Shown piece after piece: positions 55,560-60,363 of a stretch of DNA of 64,000 nucleotides. Each line of letters opens with the position of its first letter. The first letter of the stretch is position 1. Location of the stretch: positions 753 to 64,752 of IMG/VR virus record IMGVR_UViG_3300036795_000124, one strand, 5' to 3'. The translations under genes were made by a program, and so were the position numbers. Origin of the DNA: a virus. The notes below the pieces were generated by a model. It had not been told where the DNA came from. It made no database searches and worked only from the letters and a program-made list of their open reading frames with translations.

Positions 55560-55946
55560 ATGACCGCAGTATCGCCGTCGACGTGGCTCGCGCGCTTGTG
55601 GCAAGAGGCAGCGCAGATCTTCGACAAGTGGAGCGTCGATGGCGCCAAGGGCGAGCACGACGGACCGGCGGCGGAGCATCCCGACGTCCAAGCGGTCGCG
55701 GCCCAGCTTGCCGAGACCAAGCCCCCCGACATCACCGCCGATCAGGCGGCGATCGCAGATCATATCTCCCAGGTGGTCTTCGGCATGCAAAGCCATGCTG
55801 CGATGCTGATCAGCAAGCCCGGCGCCGACGATGCCTTTGAGGGCAAAGCGGCCGATGACCCCGGGGCCGATCCCGGCAAGGATCAGGGCGATCCAAGCAG
55901 CGACAAGATAAAGCCGAACAAAAAGCCCAAGCCGGAGAATGATTAA
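55560..55946 (+). CDS. Hypothetical protein
   Basis: AAAGGA SD; acidic. Confidence 0.6.
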   Translation: MTAVSPSTWLARLWQEAAQIFDKWSVDGAKGEHDGPAAEHPDVQAVAAQLAETKPPDITADQAAIADHISQVVFGMQSHAAMLISKPGADDAFEGKAADDPGADPGKDQGDPSSDKIKPNKKPKPEND

Positions 55947-56025
55947 CAGCGTTGGCGGAGTGGGCGGGAGTCGAACCCGACTCGACTGATCAAGCCGAGG
56001 CGCCGCGAAGGCGCGCACACCGTTA
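55944..56025 (-). ncRNA. tRNA-3'-half-like structured element
   Basis: CGGG-TTCGACT-CCCG T-arm then CCCACTCCGCCA; no D arm or anticodon arm found. Confidence 0.45.
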
Positions 56026-56027
56026 TT

Positions 56028-56225
56028 TCAGGGCCGGTGGCGTTTGCGCGGCGCGTCTTTCAGCAATTGCGCGATCGCGAGCGCGGCGATGGGCGTGATC
56101 GGCACCTTGCCGGTCGCCCACCGCCGCAATGTCGAGACATCGATCCGCAGAGTTTTGGCGAGCTGCTTGCGCCAATATTCGCCGAACAGCCGCTCACCCG
56201 CAGCGATGAGTTCTGAGGGTGTCAT
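56028..56225 (-). CDS. Cro/CI-type HTH protein
   Basis: RKQLAKTLRIDVSTLRRWATG. Confidence 0.75.
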   Translation of the reverse strand: MTPSELIAAGERLFGEYWRKQLAKTLRIDVSTLRRWATGKVPITPIAALAIAQLLKDAPRKRHRP

Positions 56226-56236
56226 CTCAGCGGCCC

Positions 56237-56840
56237 TCAATCAGCCGCCTCGTGCTCCATGACCCACCGGAGCACGTGCTCCGACATGCCATCCAGATGG
56301 ACCCACGCCCCGTAGCCCACGCCGTTCTGTGCGCTGGCCACGTTGATCGTATAGGCGCGCGGACACGCCGGGGCTGGCATTCCCCCGTTTGCCCACGTCG
56401 GCCGATGCGCCTGCTCGTCGGTGATCACGATCAGTCGGTCGTGTGGTACCTGGGCATTGATCGCGGCCACCGCCTCGAACAACCGCGTGCCGACGTGCCA
56501 TTGGCTCCTGACGATCGCATCGACGCCGGCCATGCCACGTCTTGGTGGGACCTCCACGGTCCGATCCGAGAAGCTGAACACGCGGAGCGCCTCGGCGTTG
56601 ATCATCGAGGCCAGCGTGGCCGCAGCATCCATGCGCGTCTGACCGACAGCTTGACATCCATCGAACCGGACACGTCCACCAGGACCACGGTACGGCCGCG
56701 CAGGACGGGCAGCTCGCCGATCGCCTTGACCAAGACGGCGTCAAGTACGGGCTCGAACTGAGGCGCGGCACGCGCGGCAGCGACGTAGCGGAACGGCAGC
56801 ACGCGATCAGCACCCCCCTTGCGGGCTACCCACGCGCGAT
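56237..56840 (-). pseudogene. rsr: Ro60/TROVE (Rsr) C-terminal remnant, 5'-truncated and frameshifted
   Basis: RVLPFRY, VLVDVSGSM (vWA), DRLIVITDEQ and NVASAQNGVGYG motifs; frame break near 56635-56645. Confidence 0.85.
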
Positions 56841-56926
56841 CAAGCCGGAAGATCAAACGACAGCGACACTCATTTTCAAGATGCAGTCGCCGCCTACGCT
56901 ATCCGGTACGCACGTCATTCAAGGCC

Positions 56927-57063
56927 GTGAGAGATCAGGCGAAAACGGTAACAGTACGTGCTCTACCAGACTGAGCTAACGCCCCGTATATGTGGAGCGT
57001 GATGGATTCGAACCACCGACCCCGTCCTCCTTGAAGGAAGTAACCGTCATCTACGCTACTCAC
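56927..57063 (-). ncRNA. yrlA: YrlA-type Y RNA (tRNA mimic)
   Basis: T-arm, then loop-closed acceptor-like stem, then D-arm, enclosed by a long terminal stem; directly upstream of the rsr remnant. Confidence 0.8.
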
Positions 57064-57082
57064 GCACATTCAGCGGCGCGGC

Positions 57083-57111
57083 TTATGCGCGCCCATCATG
57101 CGCGGTGTCAA
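57083..57111 (-). promoter_or_regulatory. Putative sigma70 promoter for the Y RNA
   Basis: TTGACA-N17-GCATAA on the minus strand. Confidence 0.55.
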
Positions 57112-57192
57112 GCCCCTGGGAAAAGCTTTCGCGCCGCGCGCGATGCCGTGTTATAGCCGGCTTGTCACAGCCATCCTGGAAAGGAATACGCC

Positions 57193-57297
57193 ATGAGCGG
57201 CACACAAGCGCAGGACCCCTCGCCCGAGCCACAGCCTGATCCTGCACCACAGCCCGAGCCACAGCCCAATCCGCCAGCGGACCCGCCGGCCGCATAA
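57193..57297 (+). CDS. 34-aa Pro/Gln-rich peptide (absent from the ORF track)
   Basis: AAGGA SD; MSGTQAQDPSPEPQPDPAPQPEPQPNPPADPPAA. Confidence 0.45.
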   Translation: MSGTQAQDPSPEPQPDPAPQPEPQPNPPADPPAA

Positions 57298-57371
57298 TTG
57301 TCACCGGCACGCGCATAATTCCACCGCAGGGGCGCATCCGTAAGGGGCGCCCCTTTGCTTGTGAGGCCACC

Positions 57372-57533
57372 ATGTATCTGATCTTGATCATCCTCGTGAT
57401 CTTGCTGCTGGCGGGCGGTGGTGGCTGGCATTACGGGCCGGCAATGGGATGGGGCGCGCCGCATTATCTCGGCGGCGGGCTCGCCATCGTCCTGTTGATC
57501 ATTCTCATTCTCGCCCTGTTGGGGCGCCTCTGA
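57372..57533 (+). CDS. DUF3309-like small membrane protein (absent from the ORF track)
   Basis: MYLILIILVILLLAGGGGWHYG...GGGLAIVLLIILILALLGRL. Confidence 0.7.
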   Translation: MYLILIILVILLLAGGGGWHYGPAMGWGAPHYLGGGLAIVLLIILILALLGRL

Positions 57534-57637
57534 ATGGAGCAACTGTTTCCCGAATTGATCCAGGCGATCGCGACCGCGCTCGGCGCTGTGATCACCGCTA
57601 CCGCCGCCAGCGCGCGCCCCATAATCAGGGAACATTC

Positions 57638-58063
57638 ATGAGCGAGATTAAGAGCAAGCCAATTCTCTGTCTGGATTTCGACGGCGTAATGCACAGCTAT
57701 TCGAGCGGATGGAAGGGCGCTGACGTGATCCCTGATCCGCCGGTGCCCGGTATGGTGGAGTTCCTCGAACGCGCAATGGAGTGGTTCGACATCCACGTGT
57801 TCAGCAGTCGCTCGCATCAGACCGGCGGCACGCAGGCGATGAGAGATTGGCTCCGCACGCATGTCACGCGACATTTCGACTGTGAGTTCCACACTGGCAG
57901 ACCCGCAGATTTCGACCGCGCCATGGCGATCATCGACGGGGTGACATTCGCTACCGAAAAGCCTGCGGCCTTCCTATCGATCGATGATCGCGCATTGACA
58001 TTCAATGGCGAATGGCCTGATCCAATGTCACTTCGCTTGTTCAAGCCATGGAATAAGCGATAA
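57638..58063 (+). CDS. HAD-superfamily phosphatase-like protein
   Basis: LDFDGV motif I, VFSSR, KP...SIDDRA. Confidence 0.85.
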   Translation: MSEIKSKPILCLDFDGVMHSYSSGWKGADVIPDPPVPGMVEFLERAMEWFDIHVFSSRSHQTGGTQAMRDWLRTHVTRHFDCEFHTGRPADFDRAMAIIDGVTFATEKPAAFLSIDDRALTFNGEWPDPMSLRLFKPWNKR

Positions 58064-59538: not shown

Positions 59539-59758
59539 GAGCTTTCCCCCGATTTCTATCGGCCGCACGCCAATCGATGCCGTTTTCTTCGCAGTACCGG
59601 CGCAAAACATCGACCTCGCTGCGGAGCAGATGACCTGTTACCGGCACAAATTTGTTCACATCTTCGGGCGGCAGGCTTTCGAGCGTGCCGGCGAACAGAT
59701 CGAGATGATCGCAGATCGTCGCCAACACGTGCGCATTGCGCATACGTTCGTCGCTCAT
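59528..59758 (-). CDS. Hypothetical protein
   Basis: ATGA-coupled. Confidence 0.55.
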   Translation of the reverse strand: MSDERMRNAHVLATICDHLDLFAGTLESLPPEDVNKFVPVTGHLLRSEVDVLRRYCEENGIDWRAADRNRGKAHER

Positions 59759-60363
59759 TCCGCGCTGACCCAATTGGATTTCGGTTTCCAACTTACGCCA
59801 CGACAGATGTTTGAGACCTGTGATGAGCTAATCGTGAATTCGATCGCCAGCTTCTCCAGAGTCCAACCGTTTGTGCGTAAGAGCCGCATTCGATCGACCT
59901 GTTCCTGCGTCAGGATTGCGGCTGAATTCTCTGCTCCGCGCAGTGTTCGACCAGGACCTATAAATGATTGCCGTCCCTTTCTTACTTTGTCATCCATGTT
60001 TTCCTGATGGGTGCCTGGGAACAGGTGGAGTGGCTGAATACACGGCATAAAGTCGCAACGATGTAGAATTTGTGCGCCGTTCGGTATTGGTCCCACGAAC
60101 AATTCGTAGGAGAGGCGATGCGCCATCTTTGTGATACCACTCTTTTTTCCGTTCCTAACTGTGATCAGTCCATATCGATCGCCTTGCCTTGCGCCGATCC
60201 ATTCCCAGCAATCTCCGACGACGTCCGGGGTTCGACATTCAACGAGTCGGATCTTTGATAGCACCCGCTGGCGCAAATCGTAATCTCTCAACATTGTTCT
60301 CATGTGTTCCGCATCAAGCACCGATCCACAGCAGTTGCATGCTATAATTGGCTTAATCGGCAT
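59755..60363 (-). CDS. HNH endonuclease with C-terminal HTH
   Basis: CWEW...AHRLSY...LHRCD...CIQPLHL..GTHQEN motif. Confidence 0.9.
   Translation of the reverse strand: MPIKPIIACNCCGSVLDAEHMRTMLRDYDLRQRVLSKIRLVECRTPDVVGDCWEWIGARQGDRYGLITVRNGKKSGITKMAHRLSYELFVGPIPNGAQILHRCDFMPCIQPLHLFPGTHQENMDDKVRKGRQSFIGPGRTLRGAENSAAILTQEQVDRMRLLRTNGWTLEKLAIEFTISSSQVSNICRGVSWKPKSNWVSAE

What the first reader, a model, noticed from the sequence alone, without database searches (positions are those of the whole stretch)
56237..57111. Intact-looking Y RNA beside a decayed Ro60 gene in a phage
Seen: a 137-nt minus-strand RNA with permuted tRNA order: T-arm GGTGG-TTCGAAT-CCATC, 7-bp stem ACGCTCC/GGGGCGT closed by a loop, D-arm GCTC-AGTCTGGTA-GAGC, enclosed by a terminal stem with GACGGT/ACCGTT. 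It has a TTGACA-N17 promoter. Directly downstream only the C-terminal part of Ro60/TROVE remains, and it is frameshifted. Known: YrlA RNAs mimic tRNA, sit next to rsr and occur in some phages. Inference: the RNA is retained while the protein decays, so it may act alone, for example as a decoy for anticodon nucleases or a ligand for host Ro60.
Basis: partly seen in the sequence, partly recalled or inferred. Interest (0 to 1): 0.7.

Follow-up and report, generated by a model that had tools for sequence, protein, structure and literature searches.

The report
Intact Y RNAs beside broken phage Ro60
A soil phage carries two well-preserved Y RNAs (small RNAs that normally partner the Ro60 protein, one of them shaped like a tRNA) next to a Ro60 gene that two deletions have destroyed; this looks like a freshly broken accessory cassette, and nothing here shows that the RNAs work alone.

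Summary
Window 56930-57060 (-) encodes a 131-nt YrlA-class Y RNA. It has a closed acceptor stem, T and D arms, and a terminal stem with the Ro-binding-type bulge. A covariance model built from 31 phage homologues without it scores it 93.5 bits (E 9e-23). Homologues beside intact rsr score 74-114.

It keeps the handle but has no tRNA module.

The Ro60 gene (rsr) is dead. Codons 1-244 are absent from the whole 70.6-kb genome, and a 10-nt deletion shifts the frame after DVSGSMDVKLS. An independent assembly at 92x reproduces both lesions.

The inference "RNA kept while protein decays" is not shown. The surviving rsr codons score like intact orthologues (236 bits, median 244), so the break is recent and nothing has had time to decay. 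The closest phages lack the whole cassette.

The pattern does recur. One IMG/VR phage has an independent rsr deletion beside a similar Y RNA. One complete phage genome has two Y RNAs and no rsr. About a sixth of sampled phage loci lack an adjacent rsr.

The scan has often seen phage Ro60-Y RNA pairs, but not this broken state. Verdict: new member of a known kind; the Ro-independent role stays open.

The parts
56930..57060 (-). YrlA-class Y RNA, about 131 nt. Elements: outer helix AG.AG/CUCU (57060-57056 with 56933-56930); Ro-binding-type motif AGCGUAG (57057-57051); stem P1 (57051-57043 with 56949-56941); conserved GUUACUUC (57044-57037); small hairpin (57040-57026); T arm (57017-57001); closed acceptor-like stem (57000-56979); D arm (56976-56960).
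   Evidence: Leave-one-out model R2 gives 93.5 bits, E 9e-23. Rfam YrlA gives 35 bits, E 1.8e-5. Family structure by covariation: 94.3% of cells paired, 22 of 27 pairs with changes on both sides.
56847..56904 (-). Second, 'mini' Y RNA. It has the same 5' handle (GAUAGCGUAG), a 9-bp stem GGCGGCGAC/GUCGCUGUC and a 3' tail GUUUGAUCUUCC, with an 18-nt loop in place of the tRNA-like module.
   Evidence: R2 gives 23.8 bits, E 3e-4, with all outer pairs canonical. Comparable 60-90-nt elements stand in arrays upstream of intact rsr in many relatives.
57082..57111 (-). Possible promoter: exact TTGACA (57111-57106), then a weak -10 (GCATAA at N17 or CATAAG at N18).
   Evidence: Read from the sequence. 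It does not pass the consensus scan. No transcript data.
56644..56829 (-). rsr (Ro60) remnant, first frame. It corresponds to residues 245-306 of a 439-aa phage Ro60: the end of the ring domain and the start of the vWA domain with the MIDAS motif DVSGSM.
   Evidence: tblastn 77% identity. Own rsr profile positions 255-322, E 2e-23.
56240..56638 (-). rsr remnant, second frame: residues 312-439, the rest of the vWA domain, with the stop codon at 56237-56239. A 10-nt deletion that removes the conserved KSDL codons separates it from the first piece.
   Evidence: tblastn 62% identity. Profile positions 326-454, E 4e-44. The deletion is shown against nine homologues.
56028..56225 (-). Intact 65-aa helix-turn-helix gene, 12 nt after the rsr stop. 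It is the last gene of the cassette.
   Evidence: Pfam HTH_3, E 9e-5. Homologues directly follow intact rsr in L006, L007, L009, L011, L024, L027, L030, L033 and L035.

Best explanation
This is a recently broken Ro60-Y RNA cassette in the accessory region of a 70.6-kb tailed soil phage. Its original layout, seen intact in more than 70 other phage loci, was: promoter, one tRNA-mimicking YrlA-type Y RNA, one or more short stem-loop Y RNAs, rsr (Ro60), and often a small HTH gene.

Two deletions killed rsr here. One of about 750 nt runs from just after the short Y RNA to codon 244. The other is a 10-nt deletion beside the MIDAS motif. Both Y RNAs, the putative promoter and the HTH gene were left untouched.

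Shown:
- The RNAs are structurally complete members of the family.
- The protein gene cannot make Ro60.
- The lesions are real in the assembled population and are recent.

Inferred: the RNAs are probably still transcribed as the leader of the remaining HTH transcript. Their intactness reflects lack of time to decay, and perhaps the need to keep the promoter for HTH, not demonstrated selection for a Ro-independent function.
For: RNA identity and integrity:
- Leave-one-out model score of 93.5 bits, within the 74-114 bits of Y RNAs beside intact rsr.
- The outer helix is AG.AG/CUCU where the consensus is GG.GG/CCCC, so pairing is kept.
- The family structure is supported by covariation.

rsr is dead:
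- Only residues 245-439 are left, in two frames.
- A 10-nt deletion is seen against nine homologues.
- There is no TROVE, vWA_Ro60 or DUF2828 match anywhere in the complete genome.

Not an artefact of one assembler: a Logan contig at 92x has 0 differences.

Recent: the remnant, read through with XX at the break, scores 236 bits on a held-out profile. Intact orthologues have median 244 and IQR 188-260, so it ranks 26 of 56. It has no in-frame stops.

Accessory:
- The closest phages by capsid protein (73-77% identity; four of the five records checked are 93-100% complete) have neither TROVE nor the RNA.
- Almost no gene from window 55.5-63.9 kb has a homologue in the two nearest, whose genomes were compared gene by gene; the exceptions are two weak hits.

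Operon context: HTH follows rsr in nine relatives.

Turnover is general: frameshifted or truncated rsr next to Y RNAs also occurs in bacterial genomes.
Against: - Broken rsr beside a good Y RNA occurs independently in L125. That copy has an internal deletion leaving 30 N-terminal and 79 C-terminal codons, and its Y RNA is 80% identical to this one and scores 93.7 bits.
- One complete phage genome (G012) keeps two Y RNAs with no rsr at all.
- 19 of 120 sampled phage loci have no rsr within 2 kb or more downstream. Y RNAs can therefore outlive rsr.
- The large deletion ends about 12 nt after the short Y RNA and so spares both RNAs exactly.
- There are no expression data either way.
Confidence: 0.6

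Rival explanations
1. The Y RNAs are still functional and use a Ro60 (Rsr) supplied by the host cell, or bind host polynucleotide phosphorylase directly. The phage then needs only the RNAs to redirect the host RNA-decay machine, and its own rsr became dispensable.
For: - Both RNAs keep the handle (AGCGUAG bulge helix) that corresponds to the proposed Rsr-binding motif GNCGAAN0-1G (PMC4201824).
- The same RNA signature lies beside cellular rsr in many soil bacteria, including Caulobacter, Bradyrhizobium, Streptomyces and Acidobacteriota. A host Rsr could therefore plausibly recognise it.
- The Yrl RNAs of Thermus phage phiLo bind host PNPase in EMSA even without Ro60 (PMC12135203).
- Phage Y RNAs without rsr recur: L125, complete genome G012, and several fragments.
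Against: - The host is unknown, so the presence of a host rsr cannot be checked. The tRNA-shaped candidate att site gave no exact match in 185,579 species genomes.
- The recent break explains the intact RNAs without any selection.
- Y RNAs without rsr mostly score lower (65-88 bits) than rsr-linked ones.
- There are no expression or binding data.
Confidence: 0.22
2. The tRNA-like module acts on its own as a decoy or competitor for enzymes that recognise tRNA, such as tRNA-targeting defence nucleases, independently of any Ro60.
For: - The module keeps the tRNA elbow nucleotides: T loop UUCGAAU, D loop with GG, U-A before the D stem, and a variable-loop-like GGGUC.
- In many family members the small hairpin is a 5-bp stem with a 7-nt loop that resembles an anticodon loop, for example CUGUUAA.
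- YrlA RNAs are substrates of tRNA-modifying enzymes (PMC4201824).
- From my own knowledge, not checked here: phage tRNAs can neutralise tRNA-targeting defences.
Against: - In this copy the small hairpin most stably forms a 5-bp or 6-bp stem with a 5-nt or 3-nt loop, which is not an anticodon loop.
- The acceptor is closed, with no CCA end.
- The second RNA has no tRNA module at all, yet it is equally preserved.
- No defence-related partner gene was found.
Confidence: 0.06
3. The RNA region is kept only because it carries the promoter and 5' leader that the intact downstream HTH gene still needs. The Y RNAs themselves are passengers.
For: - HTH is intact and is a conserved last gene of rsr cassettes.
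- No promoter-like or terminator-like site was found between the Y RNAs and HTH.
- Both deletions spare the only TTGACA-bearing upstream region.
Against: - The promoter itself is unverified.
- A promoter requirement would not protect the 190 nt of RNA sequence from point decay over time. This rival therefore differs from the best explanation only in why the deletion end points lie where they do.
- HTH is absent from the closest phages, so it is not essential to the lineage.
Confidence: 0.1
4. The truncation and frameshift are assembly or sequencing artefacts, and the phage really has an intact rsr.
For: The record comes from a metagenome. The only run that holds it is probably its own source.
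Against: - An independent k-mer assembly at about 92x gives a 15-kb contig identical over 55900-57400, with no variant contig across the junction or the 10-nt deletion.
- The deletion is 10 nt in non-repetitive sequence, not a homopolymer slip.
- The missing 735 nt occur nowhere in the complete genome.
Confidence: 0.02

Closest known systems
YrlA (Rfam RF02553), the tRNA-mimicking Y RNA of Salmonella Typhimurium, Mycobacterium smegmatis and 22 phages including Caulobacter phage CcrColossus (Chen et al. 2014, PMC4201824)
   Same: - Modular build: a stem formed by the 5' and 3' ends that carries the Ro-binding-type motif, plus a permuted tRNA-like domain with T arm, looped-shut acceptor stem and D arm.
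- Encoded upstream of rsr on the same strand.
- The CcrColossus copies fall in the same alignment and model.
   Different: - Its rsr partner is destroyed here.
- It scores below Rfam's gathering threshold, 35 bits against 69. So do all phage copies tested beside intact rsr, at 30-52 bits.
- The handle reads AGCGUAG rather than GNCGAAG.
- Chen et al. searched only genomes annotated with a TROVE protein, so copies without rsr were outside their design.
YrlB of Salmonella and other short Y RNAs encoded in tandem with YrlA
   Same: The 58-nt second element has the shared handle and stem but no tRNA-like domain. It stands in tandem between YrlA and rsr, as in arrays of many relatives.
   Different: It resembles YrlB only by architecture; there is no sequence model for YrlB here. 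The comparison with YrlB rests on Chen et al. and on my own knowledge.
Thermus phage phiLo Ro60 with Yrl1 and Yrl2 (PMC12135203)
   Same: A phage cassette with two Y-like RNAs upstream of a phage Ro60. The proposed role is capture of host PNPase.
   Different: - phiLo has an intact, structurally solved Ro60.
- Its Yrl RNAs were not described as tRNA-like (0 occurrences of the term).
- Here only the RNAs survive.
Phage Y RNAs without an adjacent rsr found here (IMG/VR records behind L125, L139 (genome G012) and L157)
   Same: - The same RNA family, at 64-108 bits with the same model.
- L125 has an independently deleted rsr beside a Y RNA 80% identical to this one.
   Different: - G012 is a low-GC (37%) complete genome with no rsr trace at all.
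- The window still holds 45% of the gene.

Membership tests
YrlA / bacterial and phage Y RNA | Match to the curated Rfam model RF02553 at its gathering score | tested here: not met
   35 bits against a gathering score of 69; E 1.8e-5 in a 1.7-kb search. Homologues beside intact rsr in Sopo, CcrColossus and Kikimora also score only 30-52 bits, so the threshold is insensitive for this clade.
YrlA / bacterial and phage Y RNA | tRNA-like domain in permuted order: T arm, acceptor-like stem closed by a loop, D arm | tested here: met
   All three helices are fully paired, with canonical T and D loops. The helices covary across 32 sequences.
YrlA / bacterial and phage Y RNA | Long stem formed by the 5' and 3' ends that carries the conserved Ro60-binding motif (GNCGAAN0-1G) | tested here: met
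   The outer helix and P1 are present, with one U-U mismatch. The motif reads AGCGUAG against a family consensus of GGCGUAG or GGUGAAG. The same A variant stands beside intact rsr in L007. Binding itself was not tested.
YrlA / bacterial and phage Y RNA | Encoded within 4 kb of a Ro60 orthologue on the same strand | tested here: inconclusive
   The rsr remnant starts about 100 nt downstream on the same strand, but it is not a functional orthologue.
YrlA / bacterial and phage Y RNA | Scores as a member with a family model that did not include it | tested here: met
   Model R2, built from 31 phage sequences without the window, gives 93.5 bits, E 9e-23. Y RNAs beside intact rsr score 74-114 bits.
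YrlA / bacterial and phage Y RNA | Expressed, bound by Ro60 and modified like tRNA | not testable with these tools
   No RNA run holds the sequence.
Ro60 / Rsr (TROVE ring plus vWA domain) | TROVE HEAT-repeat ring domain | tested here: not met
   No Pfam TROVE match in the complete genome. Positions 1-254 of the own rsr profile are absent.
Ro60 / Rsr (TROVE ring plus vWA domain) | C-terminal vWA domain with MIDAS motif in one open frame | tested here: not met
   The sequence is present and well conserved (DVSGSM; 236 bits when read through), but a 10-nt deletion right after the motif splits it into two frames.
tRNA gene | Cloverleaf with anticodon arm and open acceptor end | tested here: not met
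   ARAGORN finds no tRNA in the window. The acceptor stem is closed by a loop.

The most novel reading that the evidence does not exclude
Phage Y RNAs can work without a phage-encoded Ro60. After infection, the YrlA-type RNA and its short companion load onto the host's own Rsr and/or PNPase and redirect host RNA decay or repair. The phage rsr is then expendable and is repeatedly lost while the RNAs persist. The evidence here is this window, L125, the rsr-free complete genome G012, and roughly a sixth of sampled phage Y RNA loci.
Probability: 0.22. Interest if true: 0.7.

Novelty: new member of a known kind. Interest (0 to 1): 0.4.

Why it matters
Ro60-Y RNA particles are known in bacteria and a few phages, but their role in infection is unknown. 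They have only been looked for where a Ro60 gene is annotated.

This locus, its independent twin L125 and an rsr-free complete phage genome show that phage Y RNAs also occur without a working phage Ro60. If these RNAs are active, phages would be using a small RNA alone to capture a host RNA-surveillance machine, and that can be tested directly.

If they are not active, the locus simply records how fast accessory cassettes erode. It also warns against reading 'intact next to broken' as evidence of selection.

Tried and rejected
- **Rfam at gathering thresholds and ARAGORN:** nothing found in the window.
- **Thermodynamic folding:** the RNA is no more stable than shuffled sequence, z about -0.3 to +0.4. 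The structure rests on homology and covariation only.
- **Exact 24-mer of T arm plus acceptor in IMG/VR:** it hit only an unrelated phage tRNA-Tyr, L057.
- **Host identification through the tRNA-shaped element at 55956-56022 as a candidate att site:** its 25-mer is in none of 185,579 species genomes. The element is not conserved after HTH in relatives. No integrase was found among the ORFs I scanned.
- **Close relatives through a tail protein:** none found.
- **Expression:** no RNA holder is listed for this stretch. The single DNA holder is kept as contigs, so ends and transcript levels cannot be read.
- **Consensus promoter and terminator scan:** no site passes.
- **A second, divergent Ro-like protein in the phage (vWA_Ro60, DUF2828):** none found. 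The vWA_Ro60 search also failed to ring on the remnant, so it is insensitive here.
- **A partner gene beside the orphan Y RNAs of G012:** nothing telling.
- **The Annual Review on bacterial Ro60:** not held in the library.

Full report
**What is there**

The window is positions 753-64752 of a 70,601-bp IMG/VR virus record with direct terminal repeats, rated 100% complete. It has a large terminase, a portal protein, head proteins and a tail module.

- T arm GGUGG-UUCGAAU-CCAUC.
- A 7-bp acceptor-like stem ACGCUCC/GGGGCGU closed by an 8-nt loop.
- D arm GCUC-AGUCUGGUA-GAGC.
- A terminal stem GACGGU/ACCGUU.

ARAGORN calls no tRNA. Rfam reports nothing at gathering thresholds. In a relaxed search of 1.7 kb the YrlA model matches end to end at 35 bits, E 1.8e-5, against a gathering score of 69.

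**Is it a real, intact Y RNA?**

The vWA-coding DNA downstream matches Xanthomonas, Xylella, Caulobacter and Brevundimonas phage genes at 65-73%. In those phages the gene is a 439-469-aa TROVE-vWA protein, annotated as TROVE-like in CcrColossus. It is preceded by two or three sub-threshold YrlA matches of 30-52 bits. The Rfam model therefore under-scores this whole clade.

I collected 51 further loci from IMG/VR through the protein. In most of them a simple pattern found the permuted tRNA core upstream of the gene on the same strand, and it found the core only once in the 64-kb window.

Thirty-two sequences align into one family with conserved flanks. Read 5' to 3', the family consists of:
- a 5' GGCGUAG or GGUGAAG motif;
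- a stem;
- GUUACUUC;
- a small hairpin;
- GGUC;
- the T arm;
- a closed acceptor stem;
- the D arm;
- the 3' strand of the stem;
- UCGCCUGUUCCC.

RNAalifold predicts five helices, and 22 of the 27 pairs show changes on both sides. On those pairs:
- 94.3% of cells are paired, against 69.4% after shuffling and 36-51% when the 3' partners are slid.
- The covariation score is 0.66, against 0.19 after shuffling.

The 5' motif corresponds to the GNCGAAN0-1G motif that Chen et al. proposed as the Rsr-binding site (PMC4201824).

A covariance model built without the window sequence scores it 93.5 bits, E 9e-23, with a single U-U mismatch. Its outer helix is AG.AG/CUCU where the consensus is GG.GG/CCCC, so pairing is kept. 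With the same model, Y RNAs next to intact rsr in an independent IMG/VR sample score 74-114 bits. The RNA is a complete member of the family.

**A second RNA**

Between this RNA and the rsr remnant, at 56904-56847, the model finds a 58-nt element at 23.8 bits, E 3e-4. It has the same handle (GAUAGCGUAG), a 9-bp stem and the same 3' tail (GUUUGAUCUUCC), but an 18-nt loop replaces the tRNA-like domain. Such 60-90-nt elements are common in arrays between the YrlA-type RNA and intact rsr in relatives. It is a normal second Y RNA of the cassette, comparable in build to YrlB.

**The Ro60 gene**

Against the 439-aa Sopo protein, only residues 245-306 (56829-56644) and 312-439 (56638-56240) are found, in two frames.
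- All but a few of the related loci carry the full-length gene in one frame; the exceptions are cut by a contig end.
- Aligned with nine homologues, the window lacks 10 nt right after DVSGSMDVKLS. The deletion removes the conserved KSDL codons.
- The first 244 codons are nowhere in the genome by tblastn, by Pfam TROVE, or by a 467-position profile I built from 111 phage Ro60 proteins.
- No other Ro-like protein is encoded.

The only public run holding the stretch is a soil metagenome that is probably its source. Its independent Logan contig (15 kb, about 92x) is identical over 55900-57400. The lesions are therefore not the product of one assembler, but this is not independent data.

**How old is the damage?**

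I split the orthologues in half, built a profile of the C-terminal 195 residues from one half, and scored the other half together with the window remnant read through with XX at the break.
- The remnant scores 236 bits.
- The 56 held-out intact proteins have median 244 and IQR 188-260, so the remnant ranks 26th of 56.
- Neither piece has an in-frame stop.

The surviving codons have not drifted, so the lesions are recent. Finding about 190 nt of RNA undamaged next to about 590 nt of equally undamaged coding remnant is therefore not evidence of differential selection.

**Context**

An intact 65-aa HTH gene starts 12 nt after the rsr stop. Homologues follow intact rsr directly in nine relatives, so it is the last gene of the cassette and probably depends on transcription from upstream.

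No terminator-like site lies between the RNAs and HTH.

On the other strand, divergent from the cassette, is a gene close to the Pfam threshold for the HAD domain of 'Swiss Army Knife' RNA-repair proteins (26.7 bits against 27.5). Homologues lie near rsr in two other loci.

The closest phages by major capsid protein (73-77% identity) were checked as five records, four of them 93-100% complete. They have neither TROVE nor the RNA. In the two nearest, whose genomes I compared gene by gene, nearly everything between the tail fibre gene and a conserved 600-aa protein (window 55.5-63.9 kb) lacks a homologue. The cassette is an accessory insert in a variable region.

**Does the pattern recur?**

With the rsr profile they divide as follows:

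| State of rsr in the locus | Loci |
|---|---|
| Full rsr adjacent | 73 |
| Adjacent rsr, cut by the end of the stored locus | 9 |
| rsr elsewhere in the locus | 9 |
| Internally deleted rsr (L125) | 1 |
| None, with 2 kb or more of downstream sequence | 19 |
| None, with less than 2 kb of downstream sequence | 9 |

*L125.* Its rsr keeps its ribosome-binding site, 30 N-terminal codons and, in another frame, the last 79 codons. Upstream stands a Y RNA 80% identical to the window's, scoring 93.7 bits. This is an independent deletion in a related cassette.

*Loci without rsr.* I checked whole records for fifteen of them.
- Six have TROVE elsewhere in the record.
- Eight are fragments without it.
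- One, G012 (64.6 kb, terminal repeats, 100% complete, 37% GC), has two Y RNAs of 69 and 64 bits with the handle. It has no rsr by Pfam or by my profile at E up to 10.
- Y RNAs without rsr mostly score lower (65-88 bits; one fragment, L157, scores 108) than rsr-linked ones.

*Bacteria.* The same pattern is widespread beside cellular rsr in soil bacteria of several phyla. There too some rsr genes are frameshifted or reduced to a C-terminal piece.

**Reading**

The best-supported account is a recently broken accessory Ro60-Y RNA cassette (about 0.6). The RNAs are intact because there has been no time to decay, and possibly because the promoter region is still needed for HTH.

The recurrence of rsr-less or rsr-broken phage loci keeps a more interesting reading alive (about 0.2): the RNAs act with the host's own Rsr, or directly with PNPase. 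Three observations favour it:
- Both RNAs keep the Ro-binding-type handle.
- Cellular rsr genes in likely host groups sit beside the same kind of RNA.
- The phage phiLo Yrl RNAs bind host PNPase without Ro60 in gel shifts (PMC12135203).

The anticodon-nuclease decoy idea has little support. The small hairpin in this copy does not form an anticodon-like loop. The acceptor is closed. The equally preserved second RNA has no tRNA module.

**Novelty**

Phage YrlA-type RNAs beside Ro60 have been in print since 2014, including for CcrColossus. This scan has noted many phage Ro60-Y RNA pairs before. A search of those notes for a broken Ro60 beside an intact Y RNA returned nothing.

The RNA is a new member of a known kind. 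The orphaned state is a modest new observation whose significance depends on experiments.

Noticed in passing
window 55956-56022 (-): A 67-nt tRNA-shaped element directly after the HTH gene. It has a 7-bp acceptor-like stem with one U-U, two hairpins (5 bp with a 5-nt loop; 7 bp with a 5-nt loop), a canonical T arm GGGUUCGACUCCC and a 3' GCCA. It has no D loop or anticodon loop, and ARAGORN does not call it. Its 3' 25-mer is absent from 185,579 species genomes, and the element is not conserved in relatives that have the HTH gene. It could be a decayed tRNA, an att site or another tRNA mimic.
   Followed up: partly
window 57638-58063 (+) (ORF 57449-58063): A gene divergent from the Y RNA cassette matches the HAD domain of 'Swiss Army Knife' RNA-repair proteins (Pfam PF18143, 26.7 bits against a cut-off of 27.5). 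Homologues lie about 0.6-0.9 kb downstream of rsr in L014 and L043, which hints at an RNA-repair neighbourhood.
   Followed up: partly
window 57372-57533 (+): A 53-aa DUF3309 small membrane protein gene sits between the Y RNA promoter region and the HAD gene.
   Followed up: no
L125:10905-11600 (-): An independent case in another IMG/VR phage (54.8-kb record, 48% complete). It has two short Y RNAs and one YrlA-type RNA (93.7 bits), followed by an rsr reduced to 30 N-terminal codons and, in another frame, 79 C-terminal codons.
   Followed up: yes
L139:5267-5605 (-) (G012, complete 64.6-kb phage, 37% GC): Two tandem YrlA-type RNAs (69 and 64 bits) in a complete phage genome with no rsr by Pfam TROVE or by a phage Ro60 profile. 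The neighbouring genes give no hint of a partner (a radical SAM gene, a DnaA-type HTH gene, and unknowns).
   Followed up: partly
alignment A2, columns 34-48 (for example L001:3787-3921, L002:4053-4186, L010:1755-1884): In many family members the small hairpin after GUUACUUC is a 5-bp stem with a 7-nt loop that reads like a specific anticodon loop. Examples: CUGUUAA as in tRNA-Asn; others read UUCUGGA, UUGAUAA or CUUGUAA. The mimic may include an anticodon arm that varies between phages.
   Followed up: no
L309, L349, L372; L357, L361 (bacterial genome contigs): In bacterial genomes that carry the same Y RNA signature, some rsr genes are split into two frames, and some loci hold only a match to the C-terminal ~90 residues next to the RNA. 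These are either pseudogenes, errors in assemblies from metagenomes, or a short protein related to the Ro60 C-terminus.
   Followed up: no
window 59755-60363 (-): An HNH_3 endonuclease gene in the same variable accessory region as the cassette.
   Followed up: no
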